From Flavobacterium sp. (GTDB lineage: Bacteria; Bacteroidota; Bacteroidia; Flavobacteriales; Flavobacteriaceae), in assembly GCA_040379105.1 (NCBI GenBank), contig JBEILV010000001.1:1-45685 (forward strand): a DNA stretch of 45,685 nucleotides, given 5' to 3'. Below the pieces are notes generated by a model that ran no database searches, was not told the origin of the DNA, and saw nothing but the letters and a program-made list of their open reading frames with translations. The position numbers were made by a program, and so were the translations under genes. Shown one piece after another: positions 2,486 to 37,294 of the stretch (position 1 is its first letter; each line of letters opens with the position of its first letter).

Positions 2486-3432
2486 AATTCATACACCACT
2501 CCAATTCCCAAAACTTGCTTGAGCTGTAATCTTGGTCCAACCGTAACTTGTTCGCCATCAATTTCTTTCTTGGCTTTGGTATCGTCATCATAAATCATTT
2601 GAAGTGTGATGTTTGCCTTCACAAAATCATTGACTTGCATATCCAATTGCGATTGCCAATCGATGTCAATATTACCTACTCGATTGATATAGTCGGCAAA
2701 TAAAATCAAGCGACTTTCGTAAACAATGTTTTTATAAACTTCTTTTTTCCAATAATTATTGATCAAAACCCCCATTTCGGTTCGGTTTCTTCTTCCTTCT
2801 GAAAGAATATTCCCAAATTCATCAAAAGTAGCTCCCCGCACCCCAAACGCCCCTTGATTGGCCAATCTTTGATTTAAAACCAAGGTTGTTTTGAGTGTCA
2901 ATGGCGACATATAAATATTGAAATCTTTCTCTTTTAAATTCAATTCTGTTCCAATTCCTAAGAAAATATAGGCAGGCGCAAACGGAAGCGATATTGCAAT
3001 GTCTTTATTTGGATAAGCATATCCTTCCACAAATTGCGATGTGAAATTAAAACGCCCGGAATAATACCAATTGGAAGTTTCGCTTTTTTTATAACCAAAG
3101 TTTGAATTCAACACAAACTGGTCGTCTGTTTTTCTAAGTTCACGCCCTTCTTGTTTATTGATACCATATCTTGTGAGCAATTCGTTGTTCCACAAGACCT
3201 TCCCTCTCGTAAATTTCATCTGAAATGTTCCTCTCAAAAGCCCTGAAATTGAGCTGTTTCCCCCAGCATTCCAATTCGAAAATGCAATTTGTGTTAAATC
3301 AAAATTGACGACGTTTTTATGAACCCAATAAGTTGTGTCTTTTTCCTTTTCAGTACGAATAATGGGTTGTGCTATACAATTTGACAAAAAGAAAAAGAAA
3401 AACAACAATGTTGAAAGTGATTTTGGATACAT
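2482..3432 (-). CDS. DUF3078-type outer-membrane beta-barrel protein
   Basis: Signal peptide, Q..FSNWNAGG motif, alternating beta-strands, C-terminal ..YEF. Confidence 0.8.
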   Translation of the reverse strand: MYPKSLSTLLFFFFFLSNCIAQPIIRTEKEKDTTYWVHKNVVNFDLTQIAFSNWNAGGNSSISGLLRGTFQMKFTRGKVLWNNELLTRYGINKQEGRELRKTDDQFVLNSNFGYKKSETSNWYYSGRFNFTSQFVEGYAYPNKDIAISLPFAPAYIFLGIGTELNLKEKDFNIYMSPLTLKTTLVLNQRLANQGAFGVRGATFDEFGNILSEGRRNRTEMGVLINNYWKKEVYKNIVYESRLILFADYINRVGNIDIDWQSQLDMQVNDFVKANITLQMIYDDDTKAKKEIDGEQVTVGPRLQLKQVLGIGVVYEF

Positions 3433-3470
3433 TTTTAGGCTTTTTTTTGAAGTTGCAAAAATGTCGATTT

Positions 3471-5249
3471 TTATAAAGAATCAAAGACTTTTATCAAATT
3501 ATTTACATCGAGTCCACAAAACTTATATTGTTCAAGAACGGCGCCTTGCTCGATAAAAGTATCAGGAATTCCTAAAATTTTCAACTCATTTTTATAGTGA
3601 TGCTTTGCTATGAAAGACGCAATAGAACTTCCAAATCCACCTTGAATTGCACCTTCTTCCACAGTGATGATTTGAGCGTATTTCAGACAAATTGAATGCA
3701 AAAGAACCTCATCTAGTGGTTTAATAAACATAAAATCATAATGTGAATATTTCTCTACACTTTGCACCTTTTGAAGTGTCTCAATGACATGATTTCCAAT
3801 AAATCCGGTGGATAAAACCGCTATTAGACTTCCTTCTTTCAAACATTTGCCCTTCCCTATTTCTACTTTTTCAAATGGTTGTTCCCAATCTGTTTCCAAA
3901 GCACGTCCACGCGGATATCGAATGGAAAATGGATTTTCGGTATTGAACTGCGCTGTAAACATTAGATTTCTTAAATCCTGTGCTGTTCTCGGCGCACTGA
4001 TGATGATATTTGGAATACAATTTAAAAAAGCAATATCATACACTCCTTGATGCGTTGCGCCATCTTCGCCCACCAAACCTGCTCTGTCAATGCAAAAAAC
4101 CACAGGCAAATGTTGCAACGCTACGTCGTGTATGATTTGATCGTAAGCGCGTTGTATGAATGTGGAATAAATGGCACAAAAAACAACCAAACCTTGTGTT
4201 GCCATGCCCGCAGAAAGTGTCACGGCATGTTGTTCGGCAATGCCCACATCAAAAGCCCTTTCGGGAAATGCTTCCATCATAAATTTTAAGGACGATCCTG
4301 ATGGCATAGCGGGTGTAATTCCAATAATTTTGTCGTTTTTTTCTGCCAAAGAAACCAATGTTTTTCCGAAAACATCTTGGAATTTTGGTGGCAAATGCGC
4401 TTCGTTTTTCGGAAGAATGTCGCCTGTAACCCGATTGAATTTTCCGGGAGCGTGATATAAAACTTGATGTTCTTCTGCTTGCAATAAGCCTTTGCCTTTT
4501 GTTGTAATGACATGCAAAAATTTTGGGCCAGAAACGGATTTCAAATCATTGAAAACATCGACTAAAGCATTCATATCATGCCCGTCAACAGGACCGAAAT
4601 AATTAAAATTCAATGATTTAATCATGTTGTTGGCAGGATGGTTTTTTCCTTCTTTTACCGCAGTGAGATAGTTTTTCAGTGCACCAACACTTGGATCAAT
4701 CCCGATGGCGTTGTCGTTCAAAACAATCAAAACATTGGCATCAGCCACACCCGCATGGTTCAATCCTTCAAAAGCCATTCCTGCTGCAATTGAAGCATCG
4801 CCGATCACTGCAATATGTTGTTTTTTTAAATCGCCTTGCAATTTGGATGCAATTGCCATCCCTAAAACCGCAGAAATGGACGTAGAAGAATGTCCGACAC
4901 CAAACGTATCAAAAATGCTTTCATCTCTTTTTGGAAAACCAGAAATGCCGTTCCATTGCCGGTTGGTGTGAAATTGATTTCTTCTTCCTGTCAAAATTTT
5001 GTGCCCGTAAGCTTGATGACCCACATCCCAAACCAACAAATCATGCGGCGTATCGAAAACATAGTGCAAAGCCAATGTAAGTTCGACAACACCTAAACTC
5101 GCACCCAAATGCCCCTCTTTTGTAGCAACAATATCAAGGATAAAACTCCTCAACTCGACAGCAACCTCAGGCAAGGATGCTTGAGATAATTTTCTCAAAT
5201 CATCTGGATGATCAATCGAAGATAGGAATTTGTAGTCTGAAATTTTCAT
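3471..5249 (-). CDS. dxs: 1-deoxy-D-xylulose-5-phosphate synthase
   Basis: GHLGASLGVVEL, WDVGHQAYGHKILTGR, DVGIAEQHAV, DRAGLVGEDGATHQG; start at MKISDY. Confidence 0.96.
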   Translation of the reverse strand: MKISDYKFLSSIDHPDDLRKLSQASLPEVAVELRSFILDIVATKEGHLGASLGVVELTLALHYVFDTPHDLLVWDVGHQAYGHKILTGRRNQFHTNRQWNGISGFPKRDESIFDTFGVGHSSTSISAVLGMAIASKLQGDLKKQHIAVIGDASIAAGMAFEGLNHAGVADANVLIVLNDNAIGIDPSVGALKNYLTAVKEGKNHPANNMIKSLNFNYFGPVDGHDMNALVDVFNDLKSVSGPKFLHVITTKGKGLLQAEEHQVLYHAPGKFNRVTGDILPKNEAHLPPKFQDVFGKTLVSLAEKNDKIIGITPAMPSGSSLKFMMEAFPERAFDVGIAEQHAVTLSAGMATQGLVVFCAIYSTFIQRAYDQIIHDVALQHLPVVFCIDRAGLVGEDGATHQGVYDIAFLNCIPNIIISAPRTAQDLRNLMFTAQFNTENPFSIRYPRGRALETDWEQPFEKVEIGKGKCLKEGSLIAVLSTGFIGNHVIETLQKVQSVEKYSHYDFMFIKPLDEVLLHSICLKYAQIITVEEGAIQGGFGSSIASFIAKHHYKNELKILGIPDTFIEQGAVLEQYKFCGLDVNNLIKVFDSL

Positions 5250-5372
5250 GAAGCACAAAATTACGATTTAGTTTGAATTTCGATTCTTTTTAGCTTTTTA
5301 ATAGCATTCTTTCCAAAGTTTTTTCGACTTTTGGCTTCTAACTATCAATTTCCAACCTTTAACTTTCAATTT

Positions 5373-5813
5373 ATGATCGACGTTTTTTCAGATGCTTATT
5401 TTATGAAAAAGGCACTCATCGAAGCACAAACGGCTTTCGATTTGGGAGAAGTTCCTGTAGGTGCTGTAGTGGTGGTGCAAAACAAAGTGATTGCAAGAGC
5501 ACATAATTTAACAGAACGATTGAACGATGTGACGGCACATGCTGAAATGCAGGCCATTACGGCGGCGGCTAATTTTTTGGGCGGAAAATATTTGAAAGGC
5601 TGCACACTTTATGTCACTTTAGAACCTTGCCAAATGTGTGCAGGAGCTTTGTATTGGAGTCAAATAGACCGTATTGTTTTTGGAGCTTCAGACGAAAAAC
5701 GAGGTTTTCAAACGTTAGGCACCACGATTCATCCAAAAACAAAAGTGGAAGGGGGCATTTTGGCTCACGAAGCGATGCTTTTGATGCAAAACTTCTTTAA
5801 AAACAAACGCTAA
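5373..5813 (+). CDS. tadA: tRNA adenosine deaminase (TadA)-like nucleoside deaminase
   Basis: EVPVGAV, TAHAE, LYVTLEPCQMCAGA zinc motifs; start at MIDVF. Confidence 0.8.
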   Translation: MIDVFSDAYFMKKALIEAQTAFDLGEVPVGAVVVVQNKVIARAHNLTERLNDVTAHAEMQAITAAANFLGGKYLKGCTLYVTLEPCQMCAGALYWSQIDRIVFGASDEKRGFQTLGTTIHPKTKVEGGILAHEAMLLMQNFFKNKR

Positions 5814-7402
5814 TCTGCGCCCAAATCAATGGTTTGCTCCCAATCCCAATTGGCTCGAATATCGATGGCGTTTTTAAAATAGAATACTTCCTCGGTTTGT
5901 CGTTTTTCTAAATAACTGCCCGTGTCCCATTGTTTATTTTTGTTTTCATCATAAATAATTCTGATGGTAAAAATGGCTGGAACTAAATGGTTGAAATAAA
6001 CAAAATCTTCTTGTTTTTCAAGATATTGCGTTGCCAAAACTTTCCCTTTGTCGTCTGTCAAATCTAAAATGATTGGATAAGATTTTGCGTTTTTCAGTTC
6101 CAATCTCAAATTACCATAATCCGTATAAGCTCGGGTTGCAAATCGAAAAATCAAACTGTCGTTTACATTTCCATAGAAATCTTTAACGGCATCGGGCAAA
6201 AGTGAAAGCGTGTATTTTTCATTTTCTTCCTTATCAAAATGCAACGTAAATTCTTGCTTCCATGGGTTGTAAGATTCTTTAAATACGATTTTTGTAGAAT
6301 CTCTTTTAATGAGGCTCATTTTAGACAAGTCGAATGACTGAATCGGAATTGTGCTCACAAAAGTGAGGTCGTCTCTAAAATCGAGACCGCCTGTTTTTTT
6401 GGCTTTGATGCTGAGCGAATCTAACTTTTGGTCTTTGTTTTGCACCGTAAAAGTTTTATCGAAGTCGTTTTTTCTAATCCGAATTTGCAATGAATCTTTT
6501 TTGATTTTTGGCATCCAAAATTGAACAGAATCTTTTTCGGAAACATCTGTAATTTCAATCGGAATGTTGTTTTCAAAATCATTGATCGTTATTTCAATGT
6601 TTGACTTATCGCCAACCAATGGCACAAAATATCTACCGCCCGATGCTTGAGAAGGCTTACTGGCTTTGAATTGCGCAATTTCTTGAAACAGCTCTAATTC
6701 GTAGATTGCTTCATCGGGAATGGTGATTTTTTCGGAGTAAAATCCAATTTTTTCAGATTTTGGATCAAATTTATTGTTTCCGTTATTATCTTTCATCGCC
6801 ACCAAATAATAATCGCCCGCTTTTAAATTTTCAAGTTTGAATGTTATTAAACTATCTAAAGTGTTGGTTACATAGCGTGGTTTTTCTTTATAAACTGTCG
6901 AATCTGTAAATTTTTCATTGGCCTCATACAGCATTACTGAAACAAAATTATCTGTTTTTTTATTGAATGCATCTTTGATTGTTCCCTGCAAATAAAGCGA
7001 ATCGATGAATGATCCTGTTGAAAAAATGTACTTAAATTGACCATACGCATTCCCTTCGTTGTTGTCTTGAATGCTTTGCCCAAAATTGAAACTATACGTT
7101 GTGTTTTCTAGCAAAGTGTCTTTAATTTTAATGGTAATTTGCTTTGTTGCGCTTGTTGGCATGATCAGCGGTGCTTCGTTCATGGGTGGCGAAACAATCA
7201 ATTGTTTTCCGACATCTTTTAGCTTTATAAATTCGTCAAAAACCAATTTAATTTCTTTTTGATTGAAATTGGTGCTGCCATTTTTCGGGAAACTCATTTT
7301 TAATTGTGGAGGAATCGTGTCTTTTTTCCCACCTTCAATGCTGCCTCTTTTGGCGCAAGAAAAAAACAAAACGATTAGAATGAAGAGAAAAACATTTTTC
7401 AT
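5810..7402 (-). CDS. Conserved Bacteroidota lipoprotein with N-terminal Ig-like (Big_5-type) domain
   Basis: Lipobox LFFSCA, GG.KD..PP, TYSFNFG..IQDNNEGN, D.N.N..WD.G motifs. Confidence 0.75.
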   Translation of the reverse strand: MKNVFLFILIVLFFSCAKRGSIEGGKKDTIPPQLKMSFPKNGSTNFNQKEIKLVFDEFIKLKDVGKQLIVSPPMNEAPLIMPTSATKQITIKIKDTLLENTTYSFNFGQSIQDNNEGNAYGQFKYIFSTGSFIDSLYLQGTIKDAFNKKTDNFVSVMLYEANEKFTDSTVYKEKPRYVTNTLDSLITFKLENLKAGDYYLVAMKDNNGNNKFDPKSEKIGFYSEKITIPDEAIYELELFQEIAQFKASKPSQASGGRYFVPLVGDKSNIEITINDFENNIPIEITDVSEKDSVQFWMPKIKKDSLQIRIRKNDFDKTFTVQNKDQKLDSLSIKAKKTGGLDFRDDLTFVSTIPIQSFDLSKMSLIKRDSTKIVFKESYNPWKQEFTLHFDKEENEKYTLSLLPDAVKDFYGNVNDSLIFRFATRAYTDYGNLRLELKNAKSYPIILDLTDDKGKVLATQYLEKQEDFVYFNHLVPAIFTIRIIYDENKNKQWDTGSYLEKRQTEEVFYFKNAIDIRANWDWEQTIDLGAD

Positions 7403-7535
7403 ATAAACTACAAGATTGACTCATTTTGACCGATACAAAGTAACAATTATAAAACATTGAAATGAAATTCACTTTCAAAAACTTTAAATGCTGCTAAATA
7501 TTTTAAATGTACATTCAAATTTCAGCTCCCTACAT

Positions 7536-7570
7536 AAAAAAACAGCTGCAAATAACTGCAACTGTTTTTT
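7536..7570 (-). terminator. Rho-independent terminator of pyk
   Basis: AAAAAAACAGCTGCA-AATAAC-TGCAACTGTTTTTT hairpin with A/T tracts, just downstream of the pyk stop. Confidence 0.75.
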
Positions 7571-7593
7571 AATTATAAAGATTCGTTTAAAAT

Positions 7594-9027
7594 CTATTGA
7601 ATTTCTGAAATCCGCATTGTGTTCACCATTCCTTTGTCTGTGATCGGCATCGCAGCCAAATTAATCAGCATATCGCCGGTGTCCACAAAACCATTTTCTT
7701 TTGCCAAACGGTTTACATCGTCCACAGTATCGTCGGTACTTACAAATTTATCATAGTAGAACGATTTTACACCCCAAAGCAAATTGAGTTGTGTTAAAAT
7801 TCTTTGGTTAGAAGTATAAACCAAAATATGTGCTTGCGGACGCCAAGCCGAAATTTGAAATGCTGTATAACCACTATTTGTTAAAGTAGAAATAGCTTTC
7901 GCTTTAATTTCATTCGCCATGTTGGCAGCATGATAACAAATAGATTTAGTGATGAAACGTTTTGTTCTGATGTGAGGTGGATTTTTTGGCACTTGAATCA
8001 GCGGAGAATCTTCCACAGCTTCGATAATTTGCGTCATTTTTTGAATCACTTGAATAGGATAATTTCCTACAGAAGTTTCGCCCGACAACATCACTGCATC
8101 TGCACCGTCCATGACCGAGTTGGCAACGTCGTTCACTTCTGCTCTTGTGGGAGTCAAACTTGTAATCATGGTTTCCATCATTTGCGTTGCGATGATCACA
8201 GGAATACGCGCTGTTTTGGCACGGTTCACTAATTTTTTCTGGATCAAAGGCACTTCTTGTGCTGGAATTTCGACACCCAAATCGCCTCTTGCTACCATCA
8301 AACCATCGCAATAAGCAACAATTTTATCAATATTTTCTACCGCTTCTGGTTTTTCAATCTTAGCAACGATAGGAATTTTATGATCTGAATGTTTCATTAT
8401 CAAATCTTGCAACAAAATCAAATCGTCCGAATTTCTTACAAACGACAATGCAATCCAATCTACTTGATTTTCAATGGCAAAAATGGCATCTTTAATATCT
8501 TTTTTAGTCAATGCTGGCAAAGAAACCTTTGTATTGGGTAAGTTGACACCTTTTTTCGATTTCAATGGACCGCCTTGCACTACTCTTGCCACCACTTCGT
8601 TTTCACGGTCGGTGCTGACGGCTTCAAAAATTAATTTCCCGTCGTCAAGCAAAATACGTTCGCCTGGATTTACATCTTTCGGAAATTGCTTGTAGTTCAT
8701 ATACACTTTTTGCGCTGTTCCCGGAATGTCTTCGGCGGTTGTAAACGTGATTAAATCGCCAACATTTACAACAACATCTTCTTTCATGACGCCCACACGA
8801 AGTTTTGGCCCTTGTAAATCAGCAAGAATTGAAGTTGTAAAATTATGCTCTTTGTTGAGCTCTCTAATGATGTCGATGCGTTCTTTCACATCGGTGTAGT
8901 CCGCATGCGAAAAATTGATTCTAAACACATCAACGCCGGCAATAATCATGTCTCTAATGACTTCTTTCGAACTGCAGGCAGGCCCGAGAGTGGCAACAAT
9001 TTTGGTTTTTTTGTTTGTTGGTTTCAT
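7594..9027 (-). CDS. pyk: Pyruvate kinase
   Basis: TKIVATLGPA, RINFSH, DLQGPKLR, AKIEK, MVARGDLGVE, ATQMMETM, DAVMLSGET. Confidence 0.97.
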   Translation of the reverse strand: MKPTNKKTKIVATLGPACSSKEVIRDMIIAGVDVFRINFSHADYTDVKERIDIIRELNKEHNFTTSILADLQGPKLRVGVMKEDVVVNVGDLITFTTAEDIPGTAQKVYMNYKQFPKDVNPGERILLDDGKLIFEAVSTDRENEVVARVVQGGPLKSKKGVNLPNTKVSLPALTKKDIKDAIFAIENQVDWIALSFVRNSDDLILLQDLIMKHSDHKIPIVAKIEKPEAVENIDKIVAYCDGLMVARGDLGVEIPAQEVPLIQKKLVNRAKTARIPVIIATQMMETMITSLTPTRAEVNDVANSVMDGADAVMLSGETSVGNYPIQVIQKMTQIIEAVEDSPLIQVPKNPPHIRTKRFITKSICYHAANMANEIKAKAISTLTNSGYTAFQISAWRPQAHILVYTSNQRILTQLNLLWGVKSFYYDKFVSTDDTVDDVNRLAKENGFVDTGDMLINLAAMPITDKGMVNTMRISEIQ

Positions 9028-9509
9028 ACTTTATATAGTAAGCTGTTTTTTGATTTTTGAATTGTTTCTGGTAATAAATAAGTTGAGGCAACTTGCGGAA
9101 TGGAAGCTATTTTTTGCAATAAAAATTCTATTTCACTTTGCTCACAAACCGTGTCAATTTTAAGAATATAATCTACTTTTTTGAATTCTGGAAGAAAATA
9201 AAGCGTCGTTGCTATTGATTCTGAACCGAATAAACCATCTGTTTGGAAAAAGTTATCGTTTGAAATAGCTTTGTTTTCAACTAATTTCCAATATCTTTCA
9301 AGTTTTTTATCAAAGAATTCGAAATGAGTAAAGCCGTAAGAAGCATTTTTATGATCCACCTTAATATCTTCTCTTACAATCTTAAAAAAAGTCTTTAATG
9401 ATTGATTTAAAAAATAAGCCATTCTAAAATTAATTAAAGAAGAATGGATAGCAAGCCATGTAAACTCGTCTTCATCCGTGTCTTCAAAAGTTAACTTGTA
9501 TGCACTCAT
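9024..9509 (-). CDS. IPExxxVDY family protein
   Basis: LPEFKKVDY motif; usual position between rnc and pyk in Flavobacteria; 4-nt overlap with pyk. Confidence 0.85.
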   Translation of the reverse strand: MSAYKLTFEDTDEDEFTWLAIHSSLINFRMAYFLNQSLKTFFKIVREDIKVDHKNASYGFTHFEFFDKKLERYWKLVENKAISNDNFFQTDGLFGSESIATTLYFLPEFKKVDYILKIDTVCEQSEIEFLLQKIASIPQVASTYLLPETIQKSKNSLLYKV

Positions 9510-27016: not shown

Positions 27017-28552
27017 ATGACCGACAATTTAGAATTAGAAAAAACTCTTTGGCAAGCAGCTGACAAACTTCGCAACAATATGGATGCTGCCGAATACAAA
27101 CACGTTGTATTGGGTTTGATATTCTTAAAATATATTTCTGATGCTTTTGACGAACTCTATGAAGAACTAAAAGCAACAGAAAATGAAACAGGTGCAGACC
27201 CTGAGGACAAAGACGAATACACAGCGGAAAGAGTTTTCTATGTTCCGCCTTCTGCACGTTGGAAATGGTTACAAGGAAGAGCAAAACTACCGACCATTGG
27301 CAAAGACATTGACGATGCAATGGATGCTATTGAAAAAGACAATCCAACTCTAAAAGGCGTTTTACCCAAAGACTATGCAAGACCAGCGTTGGACAAACAA
27401 CGTTTGGGAGAATTGATAGACTTAATTGGTTCTATCACTTTGAGCAAAGGAAAAGACGGAAAAGGAAAAGATATTTTAGGCTGGGTATTTGAATATTTCT
27501 TAGGACAGTTTGCCGATGCCGAAGGCAAAAGAGGCGGACAGTTTTACACACCGCAAAGCATTGTGAAAATATTAGTAGATATGTTGGCGCCCGAACCTGA
27601 AAAACGAGTGTATGACGGTGCTTGCGGTAGTGGTGGAATGTTTGTACAAAGTGAACGCTTTATTGAGATGCACGAACATCGAAGAGGTAAAATATCTATT
27701 TTTGGACAAGAGAGTAATCCAACTACCTACAAATTAGCCAAAATGAATTTGGCAATTAGAGGTATTGATGCCAACATTGCTTTGGGCGACACTTTAATGA
27801 ATGATGCCTTTCCAGATCTAAAAGTTGATTATGTTATTGCCAATCCACCATTTAACGTTAGCGATTACAACATTAACAAAGCCGAAACACATAAATGGAA
27901 ATATGGCGTTCCGCCAACAGGAAACGCCAACTATGCTTGGTTGCAATTGTTCATCAGCAAATTGGCACCGTATGGAACGGCAGGAGTTGTGTTGGCAAAC
28001 GGAAGTATGAGTTCTGAAATTGCTACAGAGGGACAAATCAGAAAAGAATTGATTGAAAACGATTTAGTGGACTGTATGGTTTCTTTGCCTTCGCAATTAT
28101 TTTACAACACACAAATACCAGCTTGTTTGTGGTTCTTGTCTCGCAACAAAGAAGGCAATACCAAACTAAGAAACCGCAACAACGAAATTCTTTTTATTGA
28201 TGCCCGAGAATTAGGCACCATGATAAGCCGTAAGCAAAAAGAATTAAGCGAAAAAGACATTGCCAAAATTTCGGACACTTACCACAATTGGAGAAGCAAA
28301 GCCAATTTTGAAGCTAACTACAAAGACATCGCTGGATTTTGTAAAACTGCCAACATACAAGATGTACGCAAAAACAACTACATACTAACACCAGGCAGAT
28401 ACATTGATTTTAAGGAAGTAGCCGAAGATGGAGTAGCTTTTGACGAAAAAATGCAAACACTTTCTGCTACACTTTCTGCACAAATGCAAAAAGCCAATGA
28501 GTTGGACGAAGCTATTAAATTGAACCTTGCTAAAATTGGATATACGATATGA
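27017..28552 (+). CDS. hsdM: Type I R-M N6-adenine methyltransferase subunit
   Basis: LWQAADKLR, GQFYTP, YDGACGSGGMF (motif I), ANPPF (motif IV); start at MTDNLE. Confidence 0.96.
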   Translation: MTDNLELEKTLWQAADKLRNNMDAAEYKHVVLGLIFLKYISDAFDELYEELKATENETGADPEDKDEYTAERVFYVPPSARWKWLQGRAKLPTIGKDIDDAMDAIEKDNPTLKGVLPKDYARPALDKQRLGELIDLIGSITLSKGKDGKGKDILGWVFEYFLGQFADAEGKRGGQFYTPQSIVKILVDMLAPEPEKRVYDGACGSGGMFVQSERFIEMHEHRRGKISIFGQESNPTTYKLAKMNLAIRGIDANIALGDTLMNDAFPDLKVDYVIANPPFNVSDYNINKAETHKWKYGVPPTGNANYAWLQLFISKLAPYGTAGVVLANGSMSSEIATEGQIRKELIENDLVDCMVSLPSQLFYNTQIPACLWFLSRNKEGNTKLRNRNNEILFIDARELGTMISRKQKELSEKDIAKISDTYHNWRSKANFEANYKDIAGFCKTANIQDVRKNNYILTPGRYIDFKEVAEDGVAFDEKMQTLSATLSAQMQKANELDEAIKLNLAKIGYTI

Positions 28553-28980
28553 GTTTATTTGAAGAAAACAGATGGTTACAACGCTTTCAGAATTATCAAA
28601 GAGCATTAACGCATTTAGACCAAGCCATAAAATCTACCGAAGATAAAGAAATAGATGAATATTCTGATTTGGAAATTCAAGGTACTATCAAGTGCTTTGA
28701 AATGACGTTTGATTTATCTTGGAAAGTATTGCAAGATTATTTTGATGAGCAAGGATATGATATAGGAAAAGGGCCAAAAGCAAACATTCAGCAAGCATTC
28801 AAAGACAATCTCATTAAAGATGGCGACGAATGGGCTATGATGCTAGATAGCCGTAACGCTTCTGCCCACGCTTATGATGGTGATATGGCAATCGAAATTT
28901 TAAAAAAAATAAGAAATAGTTATTATTTGCTATTTGACGATTTAGACAAAGTTTTAACCCGAATTAAAAATAATGGATAA
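28549..28980 (+). CDS. HEPN-domain RNase/toxin (HI0074-like nucleotidyltransferase substrate-binding family)
   Basis: RW.QRF.NY..AL, G.IKCFE.TF.LSWK, intact Rx4HxY motif RNASAHAY (28852-28875); ATGA overlap with hsdM. Confidence 0.88.
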   Translation: MSLFEENRWLQRFQNYQRALTHLDQAIKSTEDKEIDEYSDLEIQGTIKCFEMTFDLSWKVLQDYFDEQGYDIGKGPKANIQQAFKDNLIKDGDEWAMMLDSRNASAHAYDGDMAIEILKKIRNSYYLLFDDLDKVLTRIKNNG

Positions 28981-30517
28981 AAGATTTGGTTTAAAAACAA
29001 ATTGCATTGCAGACATTATAAATGTGCTGAAACTACAACCACAAGTGGAAGAAGCCCTTATTTTTGGTTCTCGTGCTATGGGAACGTATAAAAATGGCTC
29101 TGATATTGACATAGCTCTCAAAGGCGAAAAAATAACTTTTGATATCATTGCTACTATTCGTTTACGATTAGACAAATTGCCCTATCTCTATATGTATGAT
29201 ATTATTGATTACAAAAAAATAAGCAACCCTGCTGTCACGGCTCATATTGATGAATTAGGAATCACTTTTTATAAAAAAGAAGAAAAGCCGAAGGAATGGA
29301 AAACATACACGTTAAGTAATTTGATAAATGTAAAACACGGTTTTGCATTTAAGGGTGAATATTTTTCAGAAGAGCCTACAAATGACATATTGCTTTCACC
29401 GGGTAATTTCAAAATTGGAGGAGGTTTTAAGTCTGATAAATTCAAATATTATAACGGTGAGTTTCCAAAAGATTACATTCTGAAAGAAGGTGACATACTT
29501 ATAACAATGACCGATTTGAGTAAAGCGGGAGACACGTTAGGGTATTCGGCAAAAATTCCACCGCACAATGGAATTAATTATTTACACAACCAAAGATTAG
29601 GTTTAGTTCAATTCAAGAATGATGAGATTGACCCTGATTTTTTATATTGGATTTTAAGAACAAAGCCATACCAATATTATATTGTTGGCTCTGCAACAGG
29701 TTCTACAGTTAAACATACTTCACCGACGAGAATTTGTAGTTATGAATTTGAAGCACCGATTGACAAAGAAAAACAACAAGAAATAGCCCAAATTCTTACT
29801 TCGCTTGACGACAAAATAGAACTCAACTTACAAATGAACCAAACCCTTGAAGCCATGGCACAAGCCTTGTTTAGAGAATGGTTTGTAAACTTCAACTTTC
29901 CAAACTTTGATGGAGTTTTAGAAAATGGATTGCCGAAGGGTTGGAGAAAATGTCAAGTAAAAGATATTTGTGAAGCAAATTCTTCAACTCTAAATTCAAA
30001 AGATACAATTAGTGAGGTACATTATATTGAAATATCAGAAGTTGATAGAGGTATGATAAATAATATTAGTGTCTATAAAAGAGGCGAAGAACCAAGTAGA
30101 GCAAAAAGAAAATTGAAGCACGGAGATACTGTACTTTCAACAGTTCGCCCAAATAGAGGCTCATATTTCTTGTCTCTTTTTCCAAGTGAAAACCTAATTG
30201 CTTCCACAGGATTTGCGGTATTTTCACCTACCAAAGTTCCATTTTCATTTTTATATATTTTCTTAACTAATGATGACCAATTAGAGTTTTACGGTAAAAT
30301 GGCAGACGGTGCGGCATATCCTGCAATTAATCAATCGGTAATAATGAATATGGAAATCATTTTACCAACAGCAGAATTACTTGAAAGGTATCAAGATGTT
30401 TCAAGTAATTTAATGATAAGAATTTATGAGAATTTAGAAGCAAATAAAATTTTAACCCAAACCCGAGATACTTTATTACCAAAGTTGATGAGTGGGAAAA
30501 TAGAAATAAGAAATTAA
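28973..30517 (+). CDS. hsdS: Fusion: minimal nucleotidyltransferase (MNT) domain + type I R-M specificity subunit
   Basis: aa 1-~100 FGSRAMGTYKNGSDID (GSx10DxD); then EWKTYTL-TRD1, IAQILTSLDDKIELN..MNQTLE spacer, LPKGW-TRD2, RDTLLPKLMSG. Confidence 0.92.
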   Translation: MDKRFGLKTNCIADIINVLKLQPQVEEALIFGSRAMGTYKNGSDIDIALKGEKITFDIIATIRLRLDKLPYLYMYDIIDYKKISNPAVTAHIDELGITFYKKEEKPKEWKTYTLSNLINVKHGFAFKGEYFSEEPTNDILLSPGNFKIGGGFKSDKFKYYNGEFPKDYILKEGDILITMTDLSKAGDTLGYSAKIPPHNGINYLHNQRLGLVQFKNDEIDPDFLYWILRTKPYQYYIVGSATGSTVKHTSPTRICSYEFEAPIDKEKQQEIAQILTSLDDKIELNLQMNQTLEAMAQALFREWFVNFNFPNFDGVLENGLPKGWRKCQVKDICEANSSTLNSKDTISEVHYIEISEVDRGMINNISVYKRGEEPSRAKRKLKHGDTVLSTVRPNRGSYFLSLFPSENLIASTGFAVFSPTKVPFSFLYIFLTNDDQLEFYGKMADGAAYPAINQSVIMNMEIILPTAELLERYQDVSSNLMIRIYENLEANKILTQTRDTLLPKLMSGKIEIRN

Positions 30518-30520
30518 CCG

Positions 30521-30918
30521 ATGAGAATAATAGTTTTACAAGGAATGCCCAACACAGGAAAAACAAGAACATTAAATCTTGTTTATGATATGCTTGTGCC
30601 AAATGGTGGTGGTGTTTCCACCAATCGTCAGCCTTTGGGTGGCGACCCAAGAGATTTTTCTGATATTGTAATTAGAGGAACTCAACGAATTGCTTTTTAT
30701 TCAATGGGCGATTATTCTACCTATTTAGCAAATGCTATTTATGATTACGACCGTCAAGGATGCGATGTATTGGTATCACCAACAACGCCAAAGTACGAGC
30801 CAATAATGCGTTAAACCAATTCAACGTTGCCAGAATAAACAAAACCATTGCTCCCAATTCAACTGCTCAATTAACAACGAATACAGCAGATGCACAAACG
30901 ATATACAATTTGATTTAA
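30521..30918 (+). pseudogene. Small P-loop protein gene, apparently frameshifted near 30775
   Basis: N-terminal IIVLQGMPNTGKT Walker A; frame stops at 30814, but the -1 frame continues ITNNAKVRANNALNQF...ADAQTIYNLI to TAA 30918. Confidence 0.6.
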
Positions 30919-30973: not shown

Positions 30974-31306
30974 GTGGATATAAAATTTGGACATAAGAAA
31001 TTAGGAAAATTAGCCAACGACCCAAGAAAGTGTAAGCAGGAAATGGGCGAAAGAAGAGCCACGCTCTTTTTAAAAAGGCTGACTGATTTGCGTGATGCTG
31101 AAACACTCGAAGATGTAAGACACCTGCCCAGACGGTATCACGAGCTAAAGGAAACACGCAAAGGACAATGGGCTTGCGACTTAGACCATCCTTATCGCCT
31201 TATTTTTATCCCGCAAGAAAACCCTATACCAACCAATGAAAACGGACAATATATTTGGTTTGAAATTGTTGGTGTAGAAGTTATTAAAATAGTAGATTAC
31301 CATTAA
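30974..31306 (+). CDS. HigB/RelE-fold toxin
   Basis: MDIKF..KKL, HELK..RKGQWACDLDHPYRLIF, C-terminal IVDYH. Confidence 0.85.
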   Translation: MDIKFGHKKLGKLANDPRKCKQEMGERRATLFLKRLTDLRDAETLEDVRHLPRRYHELKETRKGQWACDLDHPYRLIFIPQENPIPTNENGQYIWFEIVGVEVIKIVDYH

Positions 31307-31318
31307 AAAACAGCAATT

Positions 31319-32404
31319 ATGGCAACTGTAAACGAATTTTATACAGATATAGCATTCCATCCAGGCGAAACCCTGACAGAGAAATTGGAGGAGCTGAAAA
31401 TGGGACCCAAAGAATTTGCTATCCGTACCGGTAAACCTGAGAAGACGATTATTGCCATTCTTAAAGGCGATAGTTCCATCACACCTGAAATGGCGGTTCT
31501 CTTTGAAAGTGTATTAAAAATCCCAGCTGACTTTTGGTTAAAAAAACAATACCGATTTAACGAATACAAAGCAAGAGAAAAAAGAGCAATGGCTATTGAA
31601 GAAGCCAAAGGTTGGGCAAAGTGTTTCCCAGTTACCGATATGGTAAAGTGCGGATGGCTGAATGCAAGAACTAAAGCAGAAGAAAAAGTAGCAGAATTAT
31701 TTCATTTTTTTGGCGTGAGCTCACCCGATGCTTGGAAAGATTATTTTTTTAACCAACAATTGAAAGTAGCATTCCGTATCTCTTTGGTGCACACCAAAGA
31801 GCCTTATGCTGTTTCTGCATGGATAAGACAAGGCGAAATACAAGCCAGTCAGTTACATTGTGGAGAATATTCAGAAACGAAGTTTAAAAAAGCCTTAAAA
31901 GAAATTAAAAGCATAATGGCTACACAGCCCGATGATTTTTTTGAACAACTGCAACAACTGTGTTTAGCTAGTGGAGTTAAGGTAGTTTATACGCCTTGTA
32001 TTAAAAAAGCACCTTTGAGCGGAGCAACCCGTTGGATAGATGATAACCCATTGATACAACTAACAGGCAGATACAAACAAAATGACCGCTTTTGGTTTAC
32101 TTTCTTTCACGAAGCAGGTCATATACTATTACATGGAAAAAAGGATATTTTCTTAGAAGATATTGAATATTCGGAAGCGGATTTACAAAAAGAGGCTGAG
32201 GCAAACGACTTTGCTGTGGAATGGACATTTTCAACGGAACAAGAAGAAGAAGTATTAAATGCTATTCCATTAACAATTGAAAGGATTCAGGGATTTGCAA
32301 AAAAATTCAATACACATCCGGCAATGATAATAGGTCGATTCCATAAAAAAGAGTTATTGCACTATGCGGAAGGCAGAAACTTTTTTGTGAAACTTGAATT
32401 TTAA
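31319..32404 (+). CDS. HigA-type XRE HTH antitoxin fused to ImmA/IrrE (M78) metallopeptidase domain
   Basis: FHPGETL, ITPEMA, FWL..Q HigA motifs; [21 protein letters not shown] (HExxH), E.EANDFA. Confidence 0.88.
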
Positions 32405-32414
32405 GATAATTAAG

Positions 32415-35400
32415 ATGAGAAACAGCATCACCGAAAACGAAATAGAGGTAATTGCCCTTTCCTATCTTCAAAATCTAGGTTATTCCTATATTTTGGGCAC
32501 TACCCTTTCGCCTGATGGCGAACACCCCGAAAGACAGTACAACGAAGTTGTACTGCAAAACCGTTTGCGTGATGCTATTGATAAACTCAACCCAACCATT
32601 ACACAAGATGCCAAAGAAGATGCTCTCAAAAAAGTATTGCGTACTGAAAGTCCCAATGCTTTAATCAACAACGAAACTTTTCACAAATACCTTACCGAAG
32701 GTGTTGATGTAGAAGTACGCACGGCTGATGGCATACGAGGAGAAAAAGTGTATATCGTTGATTTTGCCAATGCAGAAAACAATGAGTTTTTAGCAATCAA
32801 TCAATTTACCATTATTGAAGGCAGTCAGAACAAACGACCAGACATTATTTTGTTCGTCAATGGTTTGCCTTTGGTGGTTATAGAATTGAAAAATGCAGTA
32901 GATGAAAACGCAACGATAAAATCGGCTTACAATCAATTACAAACCTACAAACAAGCCATCCCTTCGCTTTTCACTTACAACGAATTACTCATTGTAAGCG
33001 ATGGTTGGGATGCTTTGTGTGGCACTGTTACCAGCGATTTTGGTAGGTTTATGAGTTGGAAAACCAAAGACGGAGAAACCACAGCCGACCATTTGCAACC
33101 ACAAATGGAAGTGATGTTTTACGGAATGTTGCACAAAAAAACGCTTTTAGACTTAATTCGTCAGTTTGTAGTTTTTGAAAAAAGCGATACCAAAACGCTT
33201 AAAAAAGTAGCCGCTTACCACCAATATTACGCAGTAAACAAAGCCGTAAAAAGCACTGTAATTGCCAGCAGCAGCAATGGAGACAGACGAGGTGGTGTAA
33301 TTTGGCACACACAAGGAAGTGGCAAAAGTTTGAGTATGGTTTTTTATTCAGGCAAGCTCATTATTGAGCCACGAATGGAAAATCCAACTTTGGTAATCCT
33401 AACAGACAGAAACGATTTAGACGAGCAATTGCACGAAACATTTACCAATTGCCAGCAGCTTTTAAGACAAGAACCACAAAAAGCCGAAGACCGAAAAGAT
33501 TTAAGAAAATTATTGAAAGTTGCTTCGGGTGGTATTGTGTTTACCACTATTCAGAAGTTTATGCCAATGCAAACCGACATTGTGCAAACTGAAAATCCGA
33601 ACATTGTTAACGAACCAAGTGTTGAATATATTGGCGCAGACATTCAAGCATTAAGTGAAAGAAAAAATATTGTGGTTGTAGCAGATGAAGCACACAGAAG
33701 CCAGTACGATTTTATAGATGGCTTTGCCAAACATTTACGTGATGCTTTGCCCAATGCAACATTTATAGGTTTTACAGGCACACCAATAGAAAGCACCGAC
33801 CGAAACACACAAGCCGTTTTTGGTACCTATGTGGACATTTACGATATACAACAAGCCGTAAATGATAAAGCCACCGTTCCAATTTTCTATGAAAGCCGTT
33901 TAGCAAAAGTGCATTTTGCAGAAGATGAAAAAGTACATTTAGATGAGCAGTTTGAAGAACTGACGGAAGGCGAAGAGTTGAGCAATCGCCAACAAATGAG
34001 AGCCAAATGGACACGTTTAGAGGCCATTGTAGGCAATCCAAACCGTATCGCAAAAATTGCGGAAGATTTGGTGTATCATTTTGAACAACGCAACGCAGTA
34101 TTAGACGGCAAAGCTATGATTGTATGTATGAGCCGAAGAATTTGTGTGGACTTGTACGATGCAATTATTAAAATACGTCCGTTGTGGCATTCAGACGATG
34201 ACGACAAAGGAACAATCAAAGTAATAATGACAGGCAGTAGTAGTGATACTTTAAATATGCAATCGCATATCCGCAACAAACCAAAACGCAAAGCCATTGG
34301 TGACCGTTTGAAAAATCCGAATGACAGTTTGAAATTGGTTATTGTTCGGGATATGTGGCTCACAGGTTTTGACGCACCTTGTTTGCATACCTTGTATGTG
34401 GACAAACCAATGCGAGGACATAATTTGATGCAAGCCATTGCCCGAGTAAACCGAGTATTTACCGAAGGAAAAGAAGGCGGTTTAGTAGTTGACTATTTGG
34501 GCATTGCACAAGAATTAAAATCGGCATTGGCAGAATACACCGCAAGCGGTGGCGAAGGAAAACCTACACTCGACCAAGAATTGGCAGTTGCCAAAATGTT
34601 GGAATTACACGAAGCAATAGACTATCAATTAAGGCATTTTGATTGGAAGAAATTCTTCACACTTCTACCCGAAGAAAAACTAAAATTCATTCCAGTAATT
34701 GTAGATTATATTTTCAGTCAGGAAAACGGAGAACAAAGTTTTACAGAGAATACTAAAAACTTATTGAAAGCATTTGCTATTTCTGTTCCACACGACAAAG
34801 CAATGGCAATTCGTGATGATGTGGCTTTATTTCAATCCATTAAAGCAAGACTTCAAAAAATATCTGACCGTAACGAAGATGGAAAAACAGATGAGGAAAT
34901 GGAAACAGCAATCAAGCAAATCATTTCAGAAGCCATTACAGCCGACAATGTAATTGATATTTTTGATGCAGCAGGTTTGAAAAAACCAAACATTGAAATA
35001 TTAGACGAACGTTTTTTACAAGAACTAAAAGACTTGCCACAGAAGAATTTAGCCGTTGAGTTATTGAAAAAACTACTCAAAGACGAAATAAAGAAACGAA
35101 CAAAAATCAATTTGGTAGAAAGCAAAAAGTTTTCCGAAATGTTGGAAGATGCTATAAAACGCTATCACAACGGAATGATTGACACCGTAGAGTTTTTGGA
35201 AAAAGTATTAATTCCATTTGCAGAACAACTAAAAGAAGCAGACAAACGAGGGGAAAATCTTGGTTTAGACTTCAGAGAATACGCCTTTTACACAGCGTTA
35301 GAAGTAAACAACACAGCTGTTGCAGTGCTTGGTGACGAAATATTAAAACACATTGCACAAGAACTTTTAAAAACAGTTCGTAACAGTACTACAATAGATT

Positions 35401-35567
35401 GGACAATTAAAGAAAGTGTACAATCAGCATTAAGACGAAACATAAGACGAATTTTACGTTTACACGGTTATCCGCCAGACCTTCAAGAAAAAGCGGTGGA
35501 CACAGTAATTACACAAGCAAAAATGTTAGCAGAGGACTTTATAAACAACAATCCAGGCGAGAATTAA
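32415..35567 (+). CDS. hsdR: Type I R-M restriction subunit
   Basis: [20 protein letters not shown] nuclease motif, [38 protein letters not shown]; start at MRNSITE. Confidence 0.96.
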
Positions 35568-35848: not shown

Positions 35849-37294
35849 ATGCAAAACGACAAAAACCTAACCCTCGAATATTCATACACATCATTGCCCA
35901 GCCTATTTTATCAATTTGCAAAGCCCGCGCCGTTGCGCAATCCCGAGATTGTGCTGCGCAATGACGCATTTATGGACGCAGTGAACATGCCTTTAAATAA
36001 CGACGATGCTATTTTGTCTCGTTTTTTTAATCATGAAGCAGAATTCAACTCATTTGCACAAGCGTATGCAGGACATCAGTTCGGTCATTTTGCCAAATTG
36101 GGCGATGGCCGTGCGATGATGATGGGCGAATATCTTACTGCATCGAATGAACGATTTGACATCCAACTCAAAGGAAGTGGTCGAACCGCCTATTCGCGCA
36201 ATGGCGATGGAAAAGCTACTTTAAAAGCGATGTTGAGAGAATATTTAATCAGCGAAACCATGCATTTTTTAAAAATCCCAACGTCGAGAAGTTTGTTCGT
36301 TGTAAAATCAGGCAATTGGGTGCAGCGTGAAATGCAACACGAGGGCGCCGTTTTGGCTCGATGGATGAAAAGCCATATTCGGATTGGCACGTTCGAATTT
36401 GCAAGGCATTTTGGTTCGACTGCCGATTTGCAAGCTTTGGCAAACTACACTATCCAGCGTTTGTATCCTGAATTGGAAAAAGATAAAAATCCGGTTTTAA
36501 GTTTGCTTCATAAAGTAATGGAACTACAAATCCATTTGGTTACCGATTGGATGCGCGTTGGGTTCATTCACGGCGTGATGAATACCGACAACAGTGCAAT
36601 CAGCGCGGAAACTTTTGATTATGGTCCTTGCGCTTTTATGAATGTTTATGACCCGGAAACTGTTTTTAGCTCGATCGACTCCCAAGGTCGTTACGCATTT
36701 GGAAACCAACCCAAAATCATCAAATGGAACATCGCAAGGTTTGCCGAAGCGCTATTGCCGATTTTACATCAAGAGGATGAAATTTCGTTGCAAATTGCCC
36801 AAGCTGCCATCGATGATTTTGATGCGCTTTGGTATCAAAACTATTACGAAACCATGGGGAATAAAATTGGGATTTCTGTAGAAAATTCTCAACTAGTCGC
36901 TCTTGTGGATGAATTGCTTAAACTGATGGAAAAACATCAAATGGACTACACGAACACGTTTTTACAATTGTCGGAACTAATTAATTCTGTAGATGTTTTG
37001 CAATTGAACATCGATTTTCAGCAATGGATTGAAAAATGGAAATATGCCATCAACAACACCAATGGCACAGTGGATGCAGAAGCCAAAATGAAAGCGAGCA
37101 ACCCCGTTTTTATCCCTAGAAACCATCTTGTAGAACAAGCGCTGGAAGATGCAATTCATGGCGATATGAAATTATATCATCAACTTTTGGATGTTGCATC
37201 AAATCCTTACGAACATCGGCCAGATTTAGAAATATTTATGACACCTTCCGATTCAAATTTTGAAAGACAATATCAAACGTTTTGTGGCACCTAA
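35849..37294 (+). CDS. selO: Protein adenylyltransferase SelO/YdiU
   Basis: YAGHQFG...LGDGRA, QLKGSG.T.YSR.GDG, GFIHGVMNTDN, DYGP, C-terminal TFCGT. Confidence 0.93.
   Translation: MQNDKNLTLEYSYTSLPSLFYQFAKPAPLRNPEIVLRNDAFMDAVNMPLNNDDAILSRFFNHEAEFNSFAQAYAGHQFGHFAKLGDGRAMMMGEYLTASNERFDIQLKGSGRTAYSRNGDGKATLKAMLREYLISETMHFLKIPTSRSLFVVKSGNWVQREMQHEGAVLARWMKSHIRIGTFEFARHFGSTADLQALANYTIQRLYPELEKDKNPVLSLLHKVMELQIHLVTDWMRVGFIHGVMNTDNSAISAETFDYGPCAFMNVYDPETVFSSIDSQGRYAFGNQPKIIKWNIARFAEALLPILHQEDEISLQIAQAAIDDFDALWYQNYYETMGNKIGISVENSQLVALVDELLKLMEKHQMDYTNTFLQLSELINSVDVLQLNIDFQQWIEKWKYAINNTNGTVDAEAKMKASNPVFIPRNHLVEQALEDAIHGDMKLYHQLLDVASNPYEHRPDLEIFMTPSDSNFERQYQTFCGT

What the first reader, a model, noticed from the sequence alone, without database searches (positions are those of the whole stretch)
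28549..30517. HEPN RNase toxin whose putative AMPylating antitoxin (MNT) is fused to the type I R-M specificity subunit: a candidate R-M guard system
Seen: the order is hsdM -(ATGA overlap)- HEPN gene -(8-nt overlap)- one 514-aa ORF. Its first ~100 aa are an MNT with an intact GSx10DxD motif (29066-29110), and the rest is a complete two-TRD HsdS. There is no stop and no in-frame Met at the junction (..FYKKEEKPKEWKTY..), so HsdS appears to be made only as the fusion. The HEPN keeps Rx4HxY (RNASAHAY). Known: in HepT/MntA type VII TA systems, MNT neutralises the HEPN RNase by AMPylating the Tyr next to this motif, and PrrC is a HEPN anticodon nuclease that backs up the type I enzyme EcoprrI. Inference: toxin neutralisation is tied to the presence or state of HsdS, so phage anti-restriction proteins, HsdS proteolysis, or loss or swap of hsdS could release the RNase (abortive infection, or addiction to the R-M locus). 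Alternatively the MNT may AMPylate R-M subunits. The domain fusion may already exist in databases; I know of no functional description.
Basis: partly seen in the sequence, partly recalled or inferred. Interest (0 to 1): 0.85.

Follow-up and report, generated by a model that had tools for sequence, protein, structure and literature searches.

The report
Antitoxin welded to restriction specificity subunit
In this bacterium, and repeatedly in unrelated ones, the enzyme predicted to silence an RNA-cutting toxin is built into the DNA-recognising subunit of a restriction enzyme, which would likely let damage to that antiviral enzyme release the toxin as a back-up defence.

Summary
Confirmed. The order is hsdM, HEPN gene (PF08780), then one 514-aa ORF: MNT (PF18765) plus two-TRD HsdS. 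Contigs from three studies, one possibly the source, cross the junction without gaps.

The fusion is common and specific. At least 129 clusters at 50% identity carry it, 127 with an intact GSx10DxD. In genome surveys, MNTs directly before hsdS were fused in 20 of 21 cases; before other genes, 0 of 58. Other cargo before hsdS was fused in 0 of 24 loci. Fused MNTs are not one clade (AU p=4e-5). A HEPN lies directly upstream in 27 of 29 informative loci, all with Rx4HxY. MNT also fused once each to HsdM and HsdR.

Best reading: a type VII toxin-antitoxin pair whose antitoxin rides on the R-M enzyme and likely guards it, like PrrC or Ronin (0.42). Addiction, neutral fusion and other substrates remain open. 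TRD-less remnants argue against a pure guard. Nothing was tested functionally. Nine literature searches found no description.

The parts
27017..28552 (+). hsdM, type I methyltransferase subunit (511 aa from the ATG at 27017); its stop codon overlaps the HEPN start
   Evidence: PF12161 and PF02384, E 1.7e-108; sequence
28549..28980 (+). HEPN toxin gene, HI0074/PF08780 subfamily (HepT class I), 143 aa; predicted RNase
   Evidence: PF08780, TIGR01987; closest solved relative PDB 8XDJ, E 9e-25; dN/dS 0.07 against L001
28690..28701 (+). K48-x-x-E51, aligned to the Q44/E47 Mg site of the solved relative (Q replaced by K)
   Evidence: alignment; PMC11586414 results section; K also in 5 of 27 fused-locus and 15 of 165 stand-alone HEPNs
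28852..28875 (+). R102-x4-H107-x-Y109 motif; Y109 is the predicted AMP acceptor
   Evidence: sequence; R, H and Y kept in 27 of 27 fused-locus HEPNs
28973..29284 (+). MNT (MntA-like adenylyltransferase) domain, residues 1-104 of the fusion; GSx10DxD at 29066-29110, third Asp D76
   Evidence: PF18765; model matches 8XEO at 0.9 A; G32, S33, D44, D46, D76 invariant in 30 fusions; dN/dS 0.08
29270..29299 (+). MNT-HsdS junction with no stop codon; K105 (AAG, 29285-29287) at the position of the former hsdS start codon
   Evidence: sequence; spanned by contigs of X1, X2, X3; Met here in 4 of 20 close proteins, ATG in L022
29285..30517 (+). complete HsdS moiety: TRD1 (about residues 112-262), central helix (265-305), TRD2 (about 326-465), distal helix (467-507)
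   Evidence: PF01420 x2; PADLOC; AF2 secondary structure; domain comparison
32394..35567 (+). hsdR of the same system, intact frame (1057 aa), after three cargo genes
   Evidence: TIGR00348 above cut-off, E 4e-195

Best explanation
This is a HEPN toxin gene followed by an MNT antitoxin domain fused to the front of a complete HsdS inside a type I restriction-modification operon, and it likely works as a guard: the MNT, carried on the HsdM2-HsdS enzyme, is predicted to keep the HEPN RNase silenced by AMPylating Tyr109, so that loss, degradation or blocking of the enzyme would free the RNase and arrest the cell.

Shown: the gene order, the single reading frame, intact motifs, recurrence in many lineages, and specificity of the fusion for Hsd subunits.

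Inferred from solved relatives: HEPN is an RNase toxin and MNT AMPylates it.

Inferred, untested: the fusion is assembled into the R-M enzyme; the MNT's lifetime or access to HEPN depends on that assembly; and phage anti-restriction proteins (DNA mimics of the Ocr/ArdA kind) or proteolysis of HsdS trigger release. Release would most likely come through newly made or incompletely AMPylated HEPN, because the AMP mark is covalent.
For: Selection on the fusion itself. In surveys by the MNT profile alone, MNTs directly before hsdS were fused in 20 of 21 cases, against 0 of 58 with another close co-oriented gene (243 MNTs examined). Other cargo between hsdM and hsdS (PIN_12, YhcG, RhuM, GmrSD, AlbA, DUF3800, AbiJ) was fused in 0 of 24 loci. 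Among 120 listed close HsdS relatives, 10 carry PF18765 and none carries another extra Pfam family. Every longer protein with an N-terminal MNT was an Hsd subunit (20 HsdS, 1 HsdM, 1 HsdR) or, once, a HEPN.

Repeated origin or renewal. At least 17 fused/unfused changes on a 280-sequence MNT tree. One clade is rejected, p-AU 3.7e-5. Linkers run from about 0 to 38 residues. One fused locus has an EcoAI-type hsdR.

Both partners stay active-looking. GSx10DxD intact in 127 of 129 clusters. HEPN directly upstream in 27 of 29 informative loci, with R, H, Y and the E47-equivalent in 27 of 27; dN/dS 0.07-0.08 for the window against L001.

The R-M side stays alive. MNT 71-95% identical with unrelated TRD1 in 20 of 20 close proteins; hsdR adjacent in 19 of 24 informative loci.

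Precedent. PrrC and Ronin are toxins held by type I complexes and released by anti-restriction proteins (passages of PMC12707154; 10.1101/2023.04.06.535777). In the closest solved pair AMPylation is incomplete and the MNT is called labile (PMC11586414).
Against: No functional data.

L244 and L247 keep the MNT on a 272-275 aa HsdS remnant without TRDs and without hsdR; such a protein is a poor sensor of DNA mimics. The N-terminal position means TRD damage does not remove the antitoxin. A covalent AMP mark is slow to reverse, and lytic phages shut off host synthesis (inference).

The fusion is dispensable for R-M: 110 of 120 close HsdS lack it. It was found in 0 of 60 close relatives, 0 of 250 cyanobacterial-phylum genomes and 0 of 150 genomes of L004's phylum besides L004 itself. 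Unfused MNT before hsdS exists (L082, L264). K replaces the Q44-equivalent in this HEPN, so its RNase activity is not assured.

Surveyed genomes are related, so the counts overstate independence. Tandem MNT-MNT-HsdS proteins show that MNT replacement at already fused loci could inflate the number of origins.
Confidence: 0.42

Rival explanations
1. Addiction or lock-in without phage sensing. The pair is a selfish type VII module; fusing the labile MNT to HsdS stabilises it and makes hsdS translation indispensable, so the R-M locus is kept, but anti-restriction proteins do not trigger the toxin.
For: The toxin is lost first: MNT-HsdS without an upstream HEPN in L089 (IS insertion) and L239, and MNT-HsdR with only a HEPN stub in L232. 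The pair survives decay of the R-M system: TRD-less L244 and L247, and no adjacent hsdR in 5 of 24 informative loci. Fusion stabilises MNT domains in fused MNT-HEPN proteins (PMC13000451 passages). HsdS subunits are Lon-sensitive in Mycoplasma (PMC7737663 passages).
Against: An unfused pair next to hsdS would already punish deletion of the locus, so addiction alone does not predict 20 of 21 fused. The remnants show the fusion does not protect the TRDs or hsdR. Stabilisation could come from any partner, yet 0 of 58 other neighbours were fused.
Confidence: 0.3
2. Neutral ratchet. HEPN-MNT is one more cargo cassette at the hsdM-hsdS hotspot. The MNT tolerates a C-terminal extension and HsdS an N-terminal one, so the stop codon and then the hsdS start are lost, and the change is hard to reverse. 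The two functions run independently.
For: The junction is a cargo hotspot (24 loci with other cargo). The junction keeps a relic start codon that drifts to K, V, T, L, R, I or Q. P0197 shows another, unknown N-terminal extension on HsdS. MNT also occurs as a C-terminal domain on unrelated proteins (L132, L245). New cassettes can land in front of an old fused MNT (3 tandem cases), which renews the fusion without fresh selection.
Against: Unfused precursors should be common at a fast-turnover hotspot but are 1 of 21. No other cargo fused in 24 loci. Fusions reach HsdM and HsdR and a second type I family, but no non-R-M neighbour.
Confidence: 0.19
3. The tethered MNT modifies something else, such as R-M subunits, phage anti-restriction proteins or DNA ends, and the HEPN acts as its substrate-binding partner or is incidental.
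For: PF08780 and TIGR01987 are annotated as nucleotidyltransferase substrate-binding subunits. Two of 29 informative fused loci lack an upstream HEPN and keep an intact MNT motif. K at the Q44 position could weaken the RNase.
Against: The acceptor Tyr is kept in 27 of 27 partners. In 2 of 3 tandem MNT-MNT-HsdS proteins the MNT next to HsdS has decayed while the outer one is intact. The closest solved pair is a toxin-antitoxin with Y105 AMPylation.
Confidence: 0.09

Closest known systems
HepT/MntA class I type VII TA, HI0074/HI0073 subfamily; solved example Legionella pneumophila Lpg2920/2921 (PDB 8XDJ, 8XEH, 8XEO; PMC11586414, parts 1-5 of 9 read)
   Same: PF08780 HEPN before a short MNT, same 8-nt overlap, Rx4HxY and GSx10DxD; MNT model 0.9 A from 8XEO
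   Different: There the MNT is a free 108-aa protein; here it is the N-terminal domain of HsdS inside an hsdMSR operon. Q44 of the Mg site is K here.
PrrC with EcoprrI (PMC12707154 and PMC3710099, passages)
   Same: HEPN nuclease gene embedded in a type I R-M locus; proposed back-up when restriction is blocked
   Different: PrrC is an ABC-ATPase-HEPN anticodon nuclease held silent by the R-M complex, with no MNT and no covalent mark. Here the toxin is a bare HEPN and the predicted silencer is an enzyme fused to HsdS.
Ronin, decoy type I HsdMS plus RonA (10.1101/2023.04.06.535777, passages)
   Same: Toxin suppressed by HsdMS and released by Ocr, ArdA or Aop1; no hsdR, as in 5 of 24 informative fused loci here, including one complete genome with no full-length hsdR found
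   Different: RonA is a 61-aa predicted membrane toxin with no separate antitoxin. The window's locus has an intact hsdR. The hsdR-less excess here is not significant (5 of 24 against 2 of 44, p=0.09).
FhepTA fused MNT-HEPN (PMC13000451, passages)
   Same: N-terminal MNT tolerates a C-terminal partner, and fusion stabilises it
   Different: The partner there is its own toxin; 'restriction' and 'HsdS' occur 0 times in that paper's main text.
Type I R-M specificity subunits (1YF2, PacII 7VRU)
   Same: Two TRDs and two conserved helices, with TRD shuffling
   Different: Extra N-terminal enzyme domain. Databases name these fusions only 'restriction endonuclease subunit S' (for example WP_321826277.1).

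Membership tests
HepT/MntA class I (type VII TA) | Adjacent PF08780 or PF01934 HEPN and PF01909-clan MNT | tested here: met
   class definition from PMC7641770 passages
HepT/MntA class I (type VII TA) | Rx4HxY in HEPN and GSx10DxD in MNT | tested here: met
   27 of 27 fused loci
HepT/MntA class I (type VII TA) | Q/E Mg site of the PF08780 solved relative | tested here: inconclusive
   E kept, Q replaced by K; K also in 15 of 165 stand-alone HEPNs
HepT/MntA class I (type VII TA) | HEPN toxic as an RNase and neutralised by AMPylation | not testable with these tools
   needs bench work
HepT/MntA class I (type VII TA) | Antitoxin is a stand-alone small protein in a two-gene operon | tested here: not met
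   MNT is fused to HsdS; NCBIfam MntA model scores 34.3 bits, under its cut-off of 60
Type I R-M system | hsdM, hsdS with two TRDs, and hsdR with intact frames | tested here: met
Type I R-M system | Methylates and restricts a bipartite site | not testable with these tools
   no methylome or assay available
PrrC | N-terminal ABC ATPase fused to HEPN | tested here: not met
   143-aa HEPN with PF08780 only; no PADLOC match
Ronin | Small RonA membrane toxin and no hsdR | tested here: not met
   hsdR present; toxin is a HEPN; RonA itself was not searched for
R-M guard systems (works like PrrC or Ronin) | Toxin released by anti-restriction proteins | not testable with these tools
   needs bench work

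The most novel reading that the evidence does not exclude
A widespread, repeatedly evolved class of guarded type I R-M systems in which an AMPylating antitoxin is a covalent part of the restriction enzyme. The enzyme continuously writes an 'all is well' AMP mark on a HEPN RNase; phage anti-restriction proteins or proteolysis stop the marking and trigger abortive infection. HEPN effectors are swapped in front of a constant MNT-HsdS platform, and hsdR-less copies act as decoys.
Probability: 0.3. Interest if true: 0.88.

Novelty: new variant of a known kind. Interest (0 to 1): 0.72.

Why it matters
HEPN-MNT pairs are among the most abundant toxin-antitoxin modules, and the conditions that trigger them are called an open question in PMC7641770 (passage). 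This architecture names a concrete trigger: the state of a type I R-M enzyme. It is testable with three genes in a laboratory strain.

If it is a guard, it adds an enzymatic form of monitoring to PrrC and Ronin, present in about 1.5-3% of sampled genomes of two large phyla (6 of 400 and 12 of 400) and hidden under plain HsdS annotations. If it is only addiction, it still shows how a type I R-M locus can be locked in by a toxin-antitoxin pair.

Tried and rejected
Assembly artefact or frameshift at the junction: rejected (and recurrence). Singleton: rejected. Single origin of the fused MNT: rejected by AU test on 26 fused and 33 randomly drawn unfused rows, quick tree, no mixture model. No label-shuffle control was run on the count of 17 changes.

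Complex prediction of the HEPN dimer with the MNT domain: no verdict (score 0.25, mark 0.32); not used as evidence. Promoter and terminator scans: at chance level (29 against 29.6 expected; recalled Bacteroidota promoter pattern, 4 against 4.7, none in the locus). Expression: RNA run X6 covers parts of hsdM, hsdS and hsdR as contigs but not HEPN or MNT; uninformative.

Plasmids: 90 records match the MNT part at under 60% identity, none over 80% of the query; the 40 listed are annotated as stand-alone nucleotidyltransferases or unannotated. Phages: one unannotated record, not followed up. Excess of hsdR-less fused loci: p=0.09, not significant; L126 first looked hsdR-less but has an EcoAI-type hsdR, so the background count may be off too. 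HEPN swapping in front of a retained MNT: 5 of 8 fused pairs against 7 of 101 unfused, but this is about two events in one related group; a lead only. Earlier scan findings: three look-ups returned nothing.

Literature: nine searches found no description of an MNT-HsdS fusion. Figure 5 of PMC3710099 uses an 'RM_TRD' label and could show such an operon; figures are not held, and its one supplement held as text (4,325 characters) had no hit. Subscription papers are not covered.
Full report
OBSERVATION. hsdM (27017-28552) overlaps the HEPN start by ATGA. The HEPN gene (28549-28980) overlaps by 8 nt a single 514-aa frame (28973-30517). Pfam places PF08780 on the HEPN, and PF18765 (residues 14-104) plus two PF01420 stretches on the long ORF. 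An intact hsdR follows after three cargo genes. Contigs of run X1 (2218 nt, 0 differences, possibly the source), X2 (791 nt, 24 differences, no gaps) and X3 (151 nt, 0 differences) cross the junction in frame. The AF2 model (pLDDT 87.5, pTM 0.68) shows an MNT domain 0.9 A from PDB 8XEO, a short linker of lower confidence and a normal HsdS. The host is an unnamed 2.7-Mb draft genome, 81% complete; I infer Bacteroidota from gene content.

RECURRENCE. A search with the MNT part among proteins of 282-900 aa returned 47 hits of 254 candidates; 46 of 47 carry both PF18765 and PF01420, and the other is an N-terminally truncated fusion. In the 20 closest relatives the MNT is 71-95% identical while TRD1 is unrelated in all 20 and TRD2 in 19 of 20. 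A profile of 30 fusions against 1.8 billion cluster representatives gave 129 MNT-HsdS proteins among the best 150, 127 with an intact GSx10DxD. That profile favours fusions, so 129 is a lower bound on clusters, not a frequency.

FREQUENCY. I searched genomes with an MNT-only alignment (10 fused, 9 unfused rows). Window's phylum: 125 matches in 400 genomes besides G000, 7 fusions in 6 genomes. Phylum of a Methylocaldum genome: 159 matches (150 listed), 13 fusions in 12 of 400 genomes. Phylum of L004: none in 150 besides L004. Phylum of a Nostoc genome: 118 matches in 250 genomes, no frame above 267 aa; three frames of 223-267 aa were not fetched. Close relatives: 0 of 60. The number of candidates scored per genome was capped, so some may be missed.

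SPECIFICITY. I fetched flanks for 243 of these MNTs (88, 109, 16 and 30 per survey). MNTs directly before hsdS were fused in 20 of 21 cases; the exception, L264, has a broken hsdM and hsdS. With another close co-oriented gene downstream, 0 of 58 were fused. The rest: 153 with no close gene, 7 before a HEPN, 1 fused to HEPN, 1 to HsdM, 1 to HsdR, 1 cut by a contig end. As a second control, 24 loci of the same HsdS family carry other cargo between hsdM and hsdS, and none is fused (leader of at most 51 aa). Among the 120 listed closest HsdS of 1399, 10 carry the MNT and none another Pfam family. Metagenome loci, chosen with a fusion alignment and so biased, added 7 fused, 1 frameshifted with a truncated HEPN (L022) and 1 truly unfused case (L082). 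Related genomes are not independent, so the formal p-values overstate.

ORIGINS. Fused and unfused MNTs are interleaved: at least 17 changes among 190 fused and 90 unfused sequences (FastTree; L022 counted as unfused). One clade is rejected (p-AU 3.7e-5). Linkers vary from none to about 38 residues, and only 15 of 151 protein junctions found keep a Met. The window's K105 (AAG) lies where L022 has ATG, so the fusion formed by loss of the MNT stop with decay of the hsdS start (inference). One fused locus belongs to an EcoAI-type system. Three tandem MNT-MNT-HsdS proteins suggest that new cassettes can replace old MNTs at fused loci, so some 'origins' may be renewals.

PARTNER. Of 30 fused loci, one has too little upstream sequence; 27 of the other 29 have a HEPN directly upstream. 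All 27 keep R, H, Y and the E47-equivalent, against 160 of 173 stand-alone HEPNs for R, H and Y. Window against L001 gives dN/dS 0.08 (MNT) and 0.07 (HEPN). The closest solved pair is the Legionella HEPN-MNT. Its paper (PMC11586414, parts 1-5 of 9 read) reports the same gene order and 8-bp overlap, poly-AMPylation of Y105, incomplete modification, a labile MNT, and an RNase site at Q44/E47-Mg with little effect of R98A or H103A. The window HEPN has K at Q44, as do 5 of 27 fused-locus and 15 of 165 stand-alone HEPNs. Its activity is therefore likely but not assured.

MECHANISM. The pattern implies selection to tie the antitoxin to the R-M enzyme (inference from the controls above). I commit to a guard model at 0.42. 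MNT-HsdS assembles with HsdM and keeps HEPN AMPylated; blocking or destroying the enzyme stops the marking, and unmodified HEPN cuts RNA. Precedents are PrrC and Ronin (passages), and Anantharaman et al. proposed this logic for R-M-linked HEPNs in general (PMC3710099 passages). Against it: TRD-less remnants L244 and L247 keep the MNT; 5 of 24 informative loci lack an adjacent hsdR, which fits decoys or decay equally (p=0.09 against 2 of 44); the N-terminal MNT survives TRD swaps; and a covalent mark reverses slowly. Addiction with MNT stabilisation (0.30), a neutral ratchet (0.19) and another substrate (0.09) are the rivals. None could be excluded computationally.

COMPARISON AND NOVELTY. By motifs and families it is a class I HepT/MntA pair (PMC7641770 passages) inside a complete type I R-M system. 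It fails membership in PrrC (no ABC ATPase) and Ronin (hsdR present, different toxin) but may work like them. The proteins are in public databases as plain S subunits. Nine searches of open full text found no description. I read passages of PMC3710099, PMC2701414, PMC7641770, PMC13000451, PMC12839542, PMC12707154, PMC7737663, 10.1101/2024.01.29.577857 and 10.1101/2023.04.06.535777; none mentions an MNT-HsdS fusion in the passages shown. Figure 5 of PMC3710099 could not be seen and may depict such an operon. Supplements of the two preprints, including the candidate lists of R-M-embedded genes, were not read and may bear on novelty.

VERDICT. A real, widespread, repeatedly formed fusion with good comparative evidence of function and an untested mechanism. 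New variant of a known kind; interest 0.72.

Noticed in passing
window 30974-32404 +: A second toxin-antitoxin-like pair inside the same operon, between hsdS and hsdR: a weak HigB/RelE-like toxin (PF05015, E 0.005, under cut-off) and an HTH plus IrrE/ImmA peptidase protein that matches PADLOC PD-Lambda-2_B at E 1e-33. The same pair sits in unfused type I loci L039 and L047.
   Followed up: partly
window 30521-30814 +: 97-aa ORF with a P-loop-like start and no family match. Relatives directly after or near hsdS in L047 and L054 have open frames of 135-137 aa, also without a match. Run X2 has 10 more bases at 30776, so the window copy is probably truncated.
   Followed up: partly
L244 (G490:C222) 3193-6879 +: Two HEPN-MNT cassettes in one locus: HEPN, MNT-HsdM, HEPN, then MNT on a TRD-less HsdS remnant; no hsdR found in that draft genome.
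   Followed up: yes
L232 (G533:C8) 6048-9344 +: MNT fused to the N-terminus of a type I HsdR, preceded in frame by a short HEPN N-terminal stub; a Fic gene lies upstream.
   Followed up: yes
P0148, P0161, P0195: Tandem MNT-MNT-HsdS proteins; the inner MNT has lost GSx10DxD in P0161 and P0195.
   Followed up: partly
L242 (G546:C31) 3034-5454 +: Two different HEPN genes in tandem before a single MNT-HsdS.
   Followed up: partly
L129 (G356:C1, near 811584): Complete genome with hsdM-HEPN-MNT:hsdS followed by an AAA_21 ATPase and DUF4276 pair, and no full-length hsdR found by three queries.
   Followed up: partly
P0197: HsdS with an unrecognised N-terminal extension of about 140 aa and no Pfam match for it.
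   Followed up: no
L132 4334-5230 +; L245 544-1737 -: MNT as the C-terminal domain of a PIN-domain protein and of an unknown 398-aa protein, each followed by a HEPN gene.
   Followed up: no
window 35849-37294 +: A SelO adenylyltransferase gene follows hsdR; probably unrelated, though also an AMPylator.
   Followed up: no
G000:C73 638-11337; C21 and C75: The genome holds a second, distant type I R-M locus without MNT, and two weak stand-alone MNT-like matches; the window has the only PF08780-type HEPN found.
   Followed up: no
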